This document shows, piece by piece, positions 39,001-42,000 of a stretch of DNA of 64,000 nucleotides. Each line of letters opens with the position of its first letter. Positions within the stretch are counted from its first letter, which is position 1. The DNA comes from Amphiscolops sp. MND2022. Lineage: Eukaryota. The DNA is taken from the NCBI GenBank assembly GCA_964187785.1, contig OZ076416.1, positions 28,520,001 to 28,584,000 of the forward strand, read 5' to 3'. A program made the position numbers.

Positions 39001-42000
39001 TTTCCGTCAGACTATTCACTCATCGCGTATGTACCGCTCTTTGTACCAAAAGTACTCAGTACTTGATTTTGAACGCATCCAAAGGCCTCTACCTTCAAAT
39101 GCAAAACCCAGATGGGTCCCCCTTCCAATTTTTTGGCGCTATGAGACTTTCAACGCCCCTTTTTGGCTTTGTGAGACTTTTTTTCGAATTTTTTTTAAAG
39201 TCTTCAAAGGGTCCCCCTTCTATTTGTTTGGTGTTTTCCAACTGAATGGATGTTGAAAATGCCTAAATGGCCCCCTTTTACTTTTTTCGGTACTATGAGA
39301 CTGTTAAAAATTCTCGTTTTTCGTTTTTTTTATTGGAAATTTTAATTTTTTTTCGAAATTTTTCAATGTCTCCGAAGGGTCGCTCCTTCATTTATTTTGA
39401 TATTTTGCAACAAACTGGATTTCCAAAAACCCCAAGAGTCCCCTTCTACAATGTTAAAAACTTCGTGCTTTTTGAGCCTTGGATATGAGCCTTTAAACGT
39501 TCCCGTCTTGTTTTCTTTCTCATTAGTCGACATGACCTTCTACACGACATGACCTTGTAACTGCCACTTGGCCGTGGTGTAAAGTCGGATTACTGAGAGG
39601 GTCTGAGAAGCCTGCGTACTTGGGTTCGAGTCTCGCACTATGCCGAAATCTTCTATACTTCCAAAAGTAGAGGGGGGGCAAAGGGTCTCCTTTTTGATTT
39701 TTTTTTCCTGATTTAGGTGACTTGTTTCTGGATTTTCTGAATCCGAAAACCTCTCCCTCGGTTTTTAGCAGAAACAAAGTTTTGCGAGCATAAAGGGCCA
39801 CTGACGAATTTAATAATTGAATTTTTTTTCGAAGTTTCCCGCAATTTTTGGTTTTTTGATGTTTTCTGTAAAGGAAGTCGTTTTTCCGAGTCTTAAGAGT
39901 GGCCTCTTGGAATATTTTTTGATCCTGTGGATTTGATGGATTTTCCCAATGATTGTGAAAAAGACCTACGGCTGTTTCGGCACTGTGCAACTTTCGATGA
40001 AATTTTTAATTGATCAGAGTGTACCCCTCCACTTTAACCCTAAATGGACCGATTTTTGATGAATCCGGAAATTTCCTGGTCCATTTAGGGTTAATAAATG
40101 TTTTCGGCGAGCAAAAAGCATTTCAAAGCACTTTTTCCGTCACTATGAGATTTTTCCTAAGAATTTTTTAATATAAAAAGTATTGAAAAAAATGCAGTTC
40201 TTTAATGTTAGGTAGGGACAAGCGGTTTTTCAGTCTTAATGGAGCGAGGTCACCATAGTAGCGTGACGTTTTCACCGTGAGTTATGAGAAAATTATTCGT
40301 GATCAACTTCCATGCCTGACCAAACTCTATTCCAGGTGCTTTCTCTGGACTAGCAGACGCCAATGAAGGCGAAAGCTATTGCGTGGAAATCCACGAGTTT
40401 GGAGACATTTCCAATGGTGCTACATCTTGTGGGGATGTGTTCGTCACCAGTGATTGCCCCGGATCTCTGGGCACTTTCCAAACTCCAAAATCTTTTTCAA
40501 TCAAAAACTTGTCTCTGAACATTCCACATGTGCTTGGGCGGTCTTGTGTTGTCTTGAAGACTGGAAAGGTTTTAGCAGCTGGGATTATTGCCAGGTCCGC
40601 AGGGCTGCATCAGAACCCGAAAATGTTTTGCACCTGTGATGGTGTCAGTATTTTTGACGAGCAAAAACTCATCTAATTTAAATTGTAAATACTCTTCAAA
40701 GTCACATACTATGTAGTTTCTACAGAAATTTTAATTTTGCAGTCAACTTGTACTTCTTGTGTATTCATTGTGCGAGGCACTCTCTAAAAACGTCACGGTC
40801 TTCGAATGCGAGACAACTTGAGTGTTGCTACAAAATTCAGTGGTTTCAGATTTTTTGAAAATGTCCAAACTGCACTCCGTCGAATCAGAAGAGAGCTTGA
40901 AAAAACTCCTTTTTGGAAAAGATTTAGTATGCTTGCATGTTTTTGCAACCTGGGCTCCCGAGTGCGACGAATTAACGTCTGTTCTGGAGATAATAGCTGA
41001 CGAATATAAAGACGTGGTTTTTGCGAATGTCGAGGCCGAGAATGTTGAACAGTTTTGCCTCTCCAAACAAATTCAGTCAGTGCCGTCAGTTTTGTTTTAC
41101 AAATTTGGGGATCTTTACAGTCGTGTGGACGGGTTTGATGTCCCTCAGATCAAAGCGGAGTGCCGAAAGTTGTCTAACTTTGTGGGGCTCAGGCCAATGA
41201 CCAACATGAGCGGATCAGCAGGTAGTTGTAATTTTTTAACTGTCAATCAGCGCCTCAGTTTTCACACAAAATTTCTATTTGTGACTCATTTGACATTCAA
41301 AAAAAGTTGAGCGTGTTCCGTGGCTTCGTTTAGTCCGCCCTCAAGATGCACTTTTCAGAGCCTTGAAGATACTAATTGACGTCTTTTTGTAAGATGCGGT
41401 GATTTGAAATAGCCATGAAATGATCGGAAAATTTTTCATTTCAACGGATCGCCCTTTCCTTTCTACAAAAAATTCCTGTCTACATTATACTAAGAAGACT
41501 TCATGGTGTTCTGACTCTGCTTTCATCATTACCTCATTGTTCGTGGACACTCAGTTATTCTGTAACAACGCTGCGCAGTGAGAACTATGCAGCAGACACC
41601 GTTTCCGCGATGAGTGAAGCATATCAGATGTTAAGTGAATCGTCTCGTCTTTCGTTCCAAATTTTCAGCCAATCACCGGCAACCAAACTAACAGTGCTTT
41701 ACAATCAGAAATCAAGTGAACAATATCAGCATCCAAGTGAGTTAGCAAGTGAGAATTACCAACGACGCTTTCAAATTTAACAAACGCTGACCAAAGAATG
41801 CTACATGTACATGTACGCAAAATCGTATGCGGCGTTCGTTCATTCAAGCTACGATTTCGTTCATATTAAATGAGATTTGCTGTAGCAAGCTAATCAATTT
41901 CTATTGGTTGTTCATTTAATATCTGATGTGCTTCATTTAACGTGGAAACGGTGTAATAAGCGCCTAGCGATAGAGAATCAAGTACATGTACTACTGTAAA

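What the first reader, a model, noticed from the sequence alone, without database searches (positions are those of the whole stretch)
40676..40861. CCS and GLRX3 lie only 184 bp apart head-to-tail: a candidate metal-chaperone operon or read-through unit
Seen: CCS stop at 40676 and GLRX3 ATG at 40861 on the same strand. There is no AATAAA and no TE in the spacer, although introns and other intergenic regions here are kb-long and full of TEs. A TTTCAG acceptor lies 11 nt before the GLRX3 ATG. That acceptor is phase 1, so splicing from CCS exon 1 or 2 (both phase-1 donors) would give an in-frame HMA-(part SOD)-Trx-Grx-Grx chimera. Established: CCS delivers Cu to SOD1, GLRX3 is a cytosolic [2Fe-2S]/iron chaperone, and animal operons have ~100-400-bp spacers resolved by trans-splicing. 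Inference: co-transcription couples Cu and Fe-S homeostasis; the in-frame phase could be chance (1 in 3).
Basis: partly seen in the sequence, partly recalled or inferred. Interest (0 to 1): 0.65.

Follow-up and report, generated by a model that had tools for sequence, protein, structure and literature searches.

The report
Tightly linked CCS and GLRX3 genes
Two complete housekeeping genes, one for copper delivery and one for iron-sulfur handling, lie 184 bases apart on the same strand; this looks like an ordinary animal operon resolved by trans-splicing, but no RNA data were available to prove it.

Summary
A CCS-like gene (3 exons, stop 40674-40676) and a GLRX3-like gene (3 exons, ATG 40861) lie head-to-tail, separated by a unique 184-nt spacer without AATAAA. 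TTTCAG ends 11 nt before the ATG in phase 1, and both CCS donors are phase 1.

New here: the same acceptor motif lies 2 nt (a second copy 10 nt) before the CCS ATG and 6 nt before the ATG of the next gene, a CD36-like gene. That is 3 of 3 recognised gene starts, against 25 of 2121 ATGs in the whole window. The acceptor is therefore a general 5'-end feature of this genome. The best reading is spliced-leader trans-splicing; the alternative is 5'-UTR introns. It is not a sign of a CCS-GLRX3 fusion.

A 184-nt gap, against 9.7 kb to the next gene, fits published operon spacings in nematodes and flatworms. I rate a dicistronic SL-type operon at about 0.5. Rivals are an own compact promoter, an upstream cis-spliced 5' exon, and a chimera.

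The missing AATAAA is not diagnostic, because GLRX3's own 3' flank lacks it too. The organism, transcripts and synteny could not be checked. This is an ordinary kind of feature, so interest is modest.

The parts
28545..28558 (+). Two tandem TTTCAG acceptor motifs (28545-28550, 28553-28558), 10 and 2 nt upstream of the CCS ATG
   Evidence: the first lies in the 11-mer TTTCAGATTTT, which is shared with the GLRX3 site
28561..28741 (+). CCS-like exon 1: HMA domain with MTCGKC; donor CAG|gtattg, phase 1
   Evidence: Pfam HMA E=9.9e-5, 23.1 bits, below the 24.8 cut-off; weak match to human CCS domain I, 2rsq, E=0.057; sequence
31776..31946 (+). CCS-like exon 2: linker and start of the SOD-like domain; acceptor tttcag|GT, donor AAG|gtactt, both phase 1
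   Evidence: Read; frame check. No Pfam or PDB match on its own; assigned by position, frame and splice sites (inference)
40336..40676 (+). CCS-like exon 3: rest of the SOD-like domain and the C-terminal CTC (CXC) motif; stop TAA 40674-40676
   Evidence: PDB human CCS 6fon E=4e-13 and yeast CCS 1jk9 E=2.5e-7; Pfam Sod_Cu weak, E=0.0076
40677..40860 (+). 184-nt spacer: unique sequence, 34% GC, 37% T. No canonical poly(A) hexamer; TGTAAA at 40684. ATGs at 40711 (followed directly by TAG) and 40806 (a 64-codon out-of-frame ORF overlapping the GLRX3 start). ATTCAG 40835-40840, Inr-like TCAGTG 40837-40842
   Evidence: RNA fold no better than shuffles, z=+0.81; no Rfam match at E<=1
40844..40849 (+). 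TTTCAG acceptor 11 nt upstream of the GLRX3 ATG: proposed trans-splice (or 5'-UTR intron) acceptor
40861..41221 (+). GLRX3-like exon 1: thioredoxin-like domain (WAPEC); donor CAG|gtagtt, phase 1
   Evidence: Pfam Thioredoxin E=7.5e-11; best PDB hits are the human GLRX3 Trx domain, 2diy/2wz9, E=2e-13
42054..42376 (+). GLRX3-like exon 2: first monothiol glutaredoxin domain (CGFS)
   Evidence: Pfam Glutaredoxin E=1.2e-18; PDB GLRX3 2yan E=3e-31
42989..43348 (+). GLRX3-like exon 3: second glutaredoxin domain, with CKFS in place of CGFS; stop TAA 43346-43348
   Evidence: Pfam Glutaredoxin E=4.1e-17; PDB GLRX3 2yan E=9.3e-37
53062..53172 (+). Comparator, not part of the unit: TTTCAG (53062-53067) 6 nt before the ATG (53074) of the first exon of the CD36-like gene (33 aa, hydrophobic N-terminus; donor AAA|gttagg, phase 0)
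   Evidence: Exon 2 (from 53799) matches Pfam CD36 profile positions 31-86 of 463, E=6.4e-14, so about 30 N-terminal positions are left for exon 1. The exon 1 assignment is an inference

Best explanation
CCS and GLRX3 are two separate, complete genes that most likely form a two-gene operon of the animal, spliced-leader type. Transcription would start upstream of CCS and run through both genes. The CCS mRNA would be cleaved and polyadenylated inside the 173 nt between its stop and the acceptor, using a non-canonical signal. A spliced leader would then be trans-spliced at 40849|40850 and give GLRX3 a capped 5' end 11 nt before its ATG. Shown here: gene identities, exon structure, spacing, the acceptor motifs, and the uniqueness of the spacer. 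Inferred: that this organism trans-splices, that there is a polycistronic precursor, and where the CCS 3' end lies. Co-expression would then follow from sharing one promoter; no direct functional link between Cu and Fe-S handling is needed.
For: (1) Both genes are intact and on one strand. The exon sets total 693 and 1044 nt, have no internal stop, and have GT-AG borders. Exon-by-exon matches go to CCS and GLRX3. (2) The GLRX3 N-terminus is complete without an upstream coding exon: query residue 13-14 aligns to residue 27-32 of the human Trx-domain constructs. (3) The TTTCAG motif was noted at GLRX3 and then tested on the other two recognised gene starts. Both have it: CCS 2 nt (second copy 10 nt) and the CD36-like gene 6 nt before the ATG. 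Only 25 of 2121 ATGs in the window have TTTCAG 0-15 nt upstream, so two independent hits give about 1.4e-4. The 11-mer TTTCAGATTTT occurs twice in the window, exactly at the CCS and GLRX3 starts (expected 0.33; 4 of 100 shuffles reach 2). (4) The gap is 184 nt, against 9725 nt to the next gene, and no coding-looking ORF was seen by eye within 2 kb upstream of CCS. Published stop-to-start medians are 380 and 250 bp in Trichinella operons against about 2.6 kb for non-operonic genes. The C. elegans intercistronic median is 129 bp (PMC7668243, passages). Flatworm operon candidates are defined by <=300 bp (PMC12582326, passages). (5) The ATG at 40806 opens a 64-codon out-of-frame ORF across the GLRX3 start. 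A 5' end made at 40850 removes it.
Against: There is no RNA evidence of any kind. The organism is unidentified. No SL RNA gene or any other Rfam family was found in the window (0 matches at gathering; 0 at E<=1 in 40000-48000). Rfam is recalled, not checked, to hold SL RNA models for few phyla. The only taxon lead is that the nearest Atlas clusters for a CD36-like exon are commonest in Arthropoda. That lead is weak, and as recalled only some crustaceans among arthropods trans-splice. An acceptor just before an ATG can also close an ordinary 5'-UTR intron. The spacer has none of the usual poly(A) hexamers and no structure beyond shuffles. The comparison of spacings rests on a single other intergenic interval. 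In Ciona-type operons the intercistronic distance is under 100 bp (PMC7986045, passages), so the fit depends on the phylum.
Confidence: 0.5

Rival explanations
1. These are two independent transcription units that happen to be tightly packed. GLRX3 has its own compact promoter in the spacer or the last CCS exon. Its mRNA either starts close to the ATG or is trans-spliced from a short outron, and CCS terminates before it.
For: TCAGTG at 40837-40842 resembles the arthropod initiator consensus TCAGT (recalled) and would give a 5' UTR of about 22 nt free of upstream ATGs. Any start downstream of 40808 avoids the interfering ATG. The spacer and both flanks are free of within-window repeats, as expected for a constrained promoter/3'-UTR block. 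The weak Arthropoda lead favours a group in which trans-splicing is the exception (recalled).
Against: In 184 nt there must fit a CCS 3' UTR, a poly(A) signal, a terminator, a core promoter and a 5' UTR, in a locus whose other intergenic interval is 9.7 kb. TCAGTG also occurs at 28555-28560; there it would leave CCS a 4-nt leader, so at that site the acceptor reading fits better. The CD36-like start has the acceptor but no TCAGT. No TATA-like hexamer (TATAAA) is in the spacer.
Confidence: 0.25
2. The acceptor at 40849 closes an ordinary cis-spliced 5'-UTR intron. GLRX3 would start at a non-coding exon further upstream, either inside the CCS gene or shared with CCS. It would then be an overlapping gene or a second product of the CCS promoter. 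This includes a spliced dicistronic mRNA that removes most of the spacer.
For: All three gene starts have an acceptor close to the ATG, which 5'-UTR introns would also produce. GT sites exist in the spacer, for example GTAAAT at 40685 and GTAGTT at 40713 (the latter the same hexamer as the GLRX3 intron 1 donor). In flatworms, SL acceptor sites also show cis-splicing at an average of 66% of sites (PMC12582326, passages).
Against: None of the spacer GT sites has the [AC]A[GA]|GT context of the five donors read in this window. No upstream non-coding exon can be recognised from sequence. By my rough recalled estimate, 3 of 3 starts within 11 nt of an acceptor is unusual for genomes that only cis-splice.
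Confidence: 0.15
3. This is a read-through chimera. Cis-splicing from CCS exon 1 or 2 to 40850 makes a functional in-frame HMA-(part SOD-like)-Trx-Grx-Grx fusion protein.
For: Both CCS donors and the 40849 acceptor are phase 1, and the 11 nt before the ATG hold no stop. Operon loci in flatworms are often seen or annotated as chimeric models (PMC12582326, passages).
Against: The phase match has about a 1 in 3 chance. The acceptor is explained by the same motif at two other gene starts. Both genes are complete on their own, with a stop codon and a start codon in place. In the cited work such chimeras are mostly treated as annotation artefacts or splicing noise. The joined protein was not built, searched or folded here.
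Confidence: 0.05

Closest known systems
Nematode operons resolved by SL2-type trans-splicing (C. elegans, Trichinella spiralis)
   Same: Same-strand housekeeping genes. The stop-to-start gap of 184 nt lies inside the published range (C. elegans intercistronic distances mostly 50-200 bp, median 129; T. spiralis medians 250-380 bp stop-to-start; PMC7668243, passages). A TTTCAG-type acceptor lies a few nt before the ATG.
   Different: No AAUAAA-type signal of the usual set in the spacer. No SL RNA or Ur-like structure detected. Introns are 0.6-8.4 kb and carry repeats, unlike compact nematode genes. The organism is unknown.
Flatworm and tunicate operons that use one spliced leader for monocistronic and downstream genes alike
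   Same: An acceptor at the first gene (CCS) and at a lone gene (CD36-like) as well as at the downstream gene fits a single, unspecialised leader (PMC7986045 and PMC12582326, passages). The gap meets the <=300 bp criterion for flatworm candidates. Most such operons have two genes.
   Different: Ciona operons have almost no intercistronic region (under 100 bp, median about 1 bp), while here 173 nt separate stop and acceptor. Membership of either phylum is untested.
Dicistronic or conjoined (read-through) genes of animals without trans-splicing, e.g. Drosophila Adh-Adhr (recalled)
   Same: The downstream gene lies within a few hundred bp, with no evident promoter of its own. The splice phases are compatible, so a fusion is possible on paper.
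   Different: Both reading frames are complete and separate. The spacer holds an interfering ATG (40806) unless it is removed. The acceptor motif recurs at unrelated gene starts.

Membership tests
SL-resolved animal operon | Adjacent genes on the same strand with nothing between them | tested here: met
   stop 40676, ATG 40861, unique 184-nt spacer
SL-resolved animal operon | Intercistronic distance much shorter than non-operonic spacing in the same genome | tested here: met
   184 nt against 9725 nt to the CD36-like gene. Only one comparison interval was available; the genome-wide distribution was not available
SL-resolved animal operon | The organism performs spliced-leader trans-splicing | tested here: inconclusive
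   TTTCAG 2-11 nt before 3 of 3 recognised start codons, against 25 of 2121 ATGs overall. No SL RNA gene in the window. Taxon unknown
SL-resolved animal operon | The downstream mRNA carries the leader at the acceptor; a polycistronic precursor comes from one upstream promoter | not testable with these tools
   No transcript data; protein and contig collections that might hold relatives were closed
SL-resolved animal operon | 3'-end formation signal of the upstream gene inside the spacer | tested here: inconclusive
   None of AATAAA, ATTAAA or 17 other variants; only TTTAAA (40677) and TGTAAA (40684). The GLRX3 3' flank equally lacks the canonical hexamers
Conjoined / read-through chimeric gene | Compatible intron phases and an open frame across the junction | tested here: met
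   Donors at 28741 and 31946 and the acceptor at 40849 are all phase 1; the frame is open from 40822. Chance level is about 1 in 3
Conjoined / read-through chimeric gene | Transcripts that join exons of both genes | not testable with these tools
   No RNA data; the joined model was deliberately not built or searched
CCS (copper chaperone for SOD1) | N-terminal HMA domain with MxCxxC | tested here: met
   MTCGKC in exon 1. Pfam HMA 23.1 bits, just under the 24.8 cut-off. Aligns to MTCQSC of human CCS domain I
CCS (copper chaperone for SOD1) | SOD1-like domain II followed by a C-terminal CXC motif | tested here: met
   Human CCS E=4e-13. CTCDG aligns to CSCDG. The domain is about 33 residues shorter than the human one between the two aligned blocks
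GLRX3 / PICOT | N-terminal thioredoxin-like domain followed by monothiol glutaredoxin domains | tested here: met
   The best PDB hits for each exon are GLRX3 domains; Pfam Thioredoxin plus two Glutaredoxin domains
GLRX3 / PICOT | CGFS active site in each glutaredoxin domain | tested here: not met
   The first domain has CGFS. The second has CKFS at 43118-43129, aligned to CGFS of 2yan. This is a departure in one domain, not a reason to reject the family

The most novel reading that the evidence does not exclude
CCS and GLRX3 form a conserved, selected metal-chaperone operon. Its shared-phase acceptor would also yield a regulated in-frame HMA-Trx-Grx-Grx protein that physically links copper delivery to Fe-S cluster trafficking.
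Probability: 0.04. Interest if true: 0.65.

Novelty: new member of a known kind. Interest (0 to 1): 0.3.

Why it matters
If confirmed, this would be one more dicistronic operon in an animal that trans-splices. Its practical use is for annotation: it warns against fusing the two genes into one chimeric model, and it marks the acceptor-before-ATG pattern as a cheap diagnostic for this genome. The pairing of a copper chaperone with an Fe-S chaperone invites a functional story. As recalled, animal operons mostly group broadly expressed housekeeping genes without shared function, so the pairing would matter only if the linkage proved conserved across related species.

Tried and rejected
Rfam on the whole window (gathering) and on 40000-48000 at E<=1 gave no matches, so there is no SL RNA, snRNA or other RNA gene to anchor the trans-splicing claim.

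RNA folding of the spacer: -30.2 kcal/mol against -33.2 +/- 3.7 for shuffles, and 162 of 200 shuffles fold at least as well. There is no structured element.

Taxon identification by Atlas look-alikes. The Trx exon gave mixed eukaryote, bacterial and viral thioredoxin clusters, which is uninformative. A CD36-like exon gave three CD36 clusters commonest in Arthropoda, with the phylum known for only 5-17 members; this is a lead only.

Pfam on 10 further ORFs of the window: only a weak RVT_1 match (E=7e-4) and a chance-level YpjP match. No further host gene start was available to test the acceptor rule.

Window-wide enrichment of TTTCAG-N(0-15)-ATG: 26 matches against 19.25 expected, with 10 of 100 shuffles reaching 26. 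The motif is not enriched overall; the signal lies only in where the matches fall.

I considered the 104-bp satellite (44174-47793) as a possible SL RNA gene array and rejected it. Its copies are only 85% alike, the unit is too short to hold a gene plus a promoter (inference), and it has no Rfam match.

The shared 12-mer GATTTTTTGAAA (40849 and 43429) is borderline: 8 matches at <=1 mismatch against 3.91 expected. I did not interpret it.

Literature: 0 papers hold operon + trans-splicing + glutaredoxin + copper chaperone. Six hold spliced leader + operon + glutaredoxin, and none is about such a gene pair, judging from titles and abstract starts only. The flatworm operon paper has no occurrence of glutaredoxin, copper or superoxide in its main text.

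The bacterial promoter/terminator scan was not used because it does not apply to an animal locus. No complex prediction was made because no binding is claimed.
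Full report
What is there. The window is AT-rich: 31-43% GC in 2-kb steps. It holds one 200-nt N run (11882-12081), which was left untouched. Three host protein-coding genes could be recognised, all on the + strand: a CCS-like gene, a GLRX3-like gene and a CD36-like gene. Nothing about the locus suggests a human contig. CCS and GLRX3 lie side by side, each with three coding exons, and acceptor motifs abut the start codons.

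Gene models (read; checked).
- CCS-like: exons 28561-28741, 31776-31946 and 40336-40676, 693 nt or 230 codons before the stop. Both introns are phase 1 and measure 3034 and 8389 nt.
- GLRX3-like: exons 40861-41221, 42054-42376 and 42989-43348, 1044 nt or 347 codons. Intron 1 is phase 1 (832 nt) and intron 2 is phase 0 (612 nt).
- All borders are GT-AG, and the exon sets have no internal stop (a script that only counted length and stops).

Searches were made exon by exon. No search or fold was made with a joined protein, so no full-length scores exist.

CCS identity.
- Exon 1 has MTCGKC. Its Pfam HMA match is weak (E=9.9e-5, 23.1 bits against a 24.8 cut-off), and it aligns weakly to human CCS domain I (E=0.057).
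- Exon 2 matches nothing on its own. It is assigned by frame and splice sites.
- Exon 3 matches human CCS (6fon, E=4e-13) and yeast CCS (1jk9, E=2.5e-7). The motif AGIIARSAGLHQNPKMFCTCDG aligns to the human C-terminal CXC region.

GLRX3 identity.
- Exon 1 hits the human GLRX3 Trx domain best (E=2e-13).
- Exons 2 and 3 hit GLRX3 Grx domains (E=3e-31 and 9.3e-37).
- The alignment begins at query residue 13-14, so the protein needs no upstream coding exon.

The observation. The stop is at 40674-40676 and the ATG at 40861. The spacer is 184 nt. TTTCAG lies at 40844-40849, 11 nt before the ATG, in phase 1, and both CCS donors are phase 1. All of this is confirmed. The spacer has no AATAAA: of 21 hexamers tried, only TTTAAA (40677) and TGTAAA (40684) occur. 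A self-comparison of the window marks 9146 of 64000 bases as repeated. None of these lie between 39904 and 43622, so the last CCS exon, the spacer and the whole GLRX3 gene are unique. The CCS introns contain several dispersed repeats and a broken DDE_3 transposase on the minus strand (36324-37440). A dispersed repeat begins 275 nt after the GLRX3 stop, followed by a 104-bp satellite.

First, AATAAA occurs 43 times on the + strand, so 184 nt would hold about 0.12 by chance. The 300 nt after the GLRX3 stop also lack AATAAA and ATTAAA. The missing signal therefore does not single out CCS. Second, the phase match has about a 1 in 3 chance.

The new finding. The acceptor is not peculiar to GLRX3. 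The CCS ATG is preceded by two tandem TTTCAG motifs that end 10 and 2 nt upstream. The ATG of the inferred first exon of the CD36-like gene is preceded by TTGTTTTCAG ending 6 nt upstream. The assignment of that first exon rests on three things: its hydrophobic 33 residues, a phase-0 donor, and the fact that exon 2 starts at position 31 of the Pfam CD36 profile.

TTTCAG 0-15 nt upstream is found at 25 of 2121 ATGs in the window (1.2%). The motif was raised at GLRX3 and then found at both other gene starts, which gives a chance of about 1.4e-4. Window-wide the pattern is not enriched (26 against 19.25 expected). Apart from the three gene starts and one internal CD36-like exon, the ORFs behind these sites are short (3-45 codons; one of 88, not searched) and none looked like a gene by eye. 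The 11-mer TTTCAGATTTT occurs only twice in the window, at the CCS and GLRX3 starts.

Interpretation. An acceptor a few nucleotides before the start codon at every recognisable gene is the pattern expected where mRNA 5' ends are made by spliced-leader trans-splicing. It is the rule in nematodes and common in flatworms and tunicates (recalled; context from passages of PMC7986045). The alternative is a 5'-UTR intron at all three genes. I regard that as much less likely but cannot exclude it.

If the organism trans-splices, the 184-nt gap stands against 9725 nt to the next gene, and no coding-looking ORF was seen by eye within 2 kb upstream of CCS (not searched against families). This matches how operons are recognised:
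- C. elegans intercistronic regions are mostly 50-200 bp (median 129).
- Trichinella stop-to-start medians are 250-380 bp, against about 2.6 kb for other genes (PMC7668243, passages).
- Flatworm candidates are defined by <=300 bp (PMC12582326, passages).

A 5' end made at 40850 would also remove the ATG at 40806. That ATG opens a 64-codon out-of-frame ORF across the GLRX3 start and would hamper translation from an unprocessed read-through RNA. If TGTAAA at 40684 served as the CCS signal, the cleavage site would lie about 130-140 nt before the acceptor. That would be a nematode-like geometry, but this is speculation.

Rivals.
- (a) An own compact promoter. TCAGTG at 40837-40842 resembles an initiator (recalled consensus). 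However, the same hexamer before CCS would leave a 4-nt leader, and the CD36-like start lacks it.
- (b) A cis-spliced 5'-UTR exon upstream, inside CCS or shared with it. The GT sites in the spacer lack the exon-side context of the five donors read here.
- (c) A functional chimera. It is in frame on paper, but chance and the generic nature of the acceptor explain it. In flatworms, cis-splicing into SL acceptors is frequent (average 66% of sites), and fused models of operon genes are mostly annotation artefacts (PMC12582326, passages).

What stayed open.
- The organism. Atlas look-alikes gave only a weak Arthropoda lead (one search was uninformative).
- SL RNA genes. None were found in the window.
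- Transcripts, TSS, poly(A) sites and synteny. No orthologous locus could be examined.
- Paper supplements were closed, so published operon lists could not be checked.
- Text searches found no paper describing a CCS-GLRX3 operon (titles and abstract starts only).

Verdict. The acceptor is a genome-wide 5'-end feature rather than evidence of a fusion. The Cu/Fe-S coupling is an attractive but untested idea. Confidence in the operon is about 0.5. Novelty: new member of a known kind. Interest is modest.

Noticed in passing
window 43118-43129: The second glutaredoxin domain of the GLRX3-like gene has CKFS where GLRX3 domains have CGFS (aligned to 2yan). The first domain keeps CGFS. The Gly is part of the cluster- and glutathione-binding site (recalled), so the second domain may bind differently.
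   Followed up: partly
window 40336-40676: The SOD-like domain of the CCS-like protein is reduced. Between the two blocks that align to human CCS, 35 query residues stand against 68 human ones, and Pfam Sod_Cu scores only 17.1 bits. The HMA MxCxxC and the C-terminal CXC motifs are kept.
   Followed up: partly
window 44174-47793: A 104-bp satellite with 35.2 copies at 85% matches starts about 0.8 kb after the GLRX3 stop. It has no Rfam match.
   Followed up: partly
window 36324-37440 (- strand): A broken Tc1/mariner-like DDE_3 transposase, split over two frames, lies inside CCS intron 2. It is flanked by inverted 124-nt repeats, 36118-36241 and 37475-37598, at 91% identity.
   Followed up: partly
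window 7920-10904 (- strand): A 995-codon open frame with no Pfam family. A further 192-codon ORF lies at 7492-8067, also without a match. It may be a host gene exon or a mobile element.
   Followed up: no
window 6623-6764 and 11740-11881: A 142-nt stretch, 99.3% identical to 6623-6764, abuts the 200-nt N run. It is either a recent duplication or an assembly effect at the gap. The gap itself was left untouched.
   Followed up: no
window 11227-11582: A 23-24-bp minisatellite of about 8-13 copies.
   Followed up: no
window 24035-24519, 43623-44103, 55653-56571: A dispersed repeat family at 74-90% identity. One copy begins 275 nt after the GLRX3 stop, and others lie in an intron of the CD36-like gene.
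   Followed up: no
window 40849-40860 and 43429-43440: The 12-mer GATTTTTTGAAA occurs exactly twice: directly before the GLRX3 ATG and 81 nt after the GLRX3 stop. Its significance is borderline and its meaning unknown.
   Followed up: partly
window 15049-15444 (- strand): A reverse-transcriptase fragment (Pfam RVT_1, E=7e-4, below the cut-off), probably a decayed retroelement.
   Followed up: no
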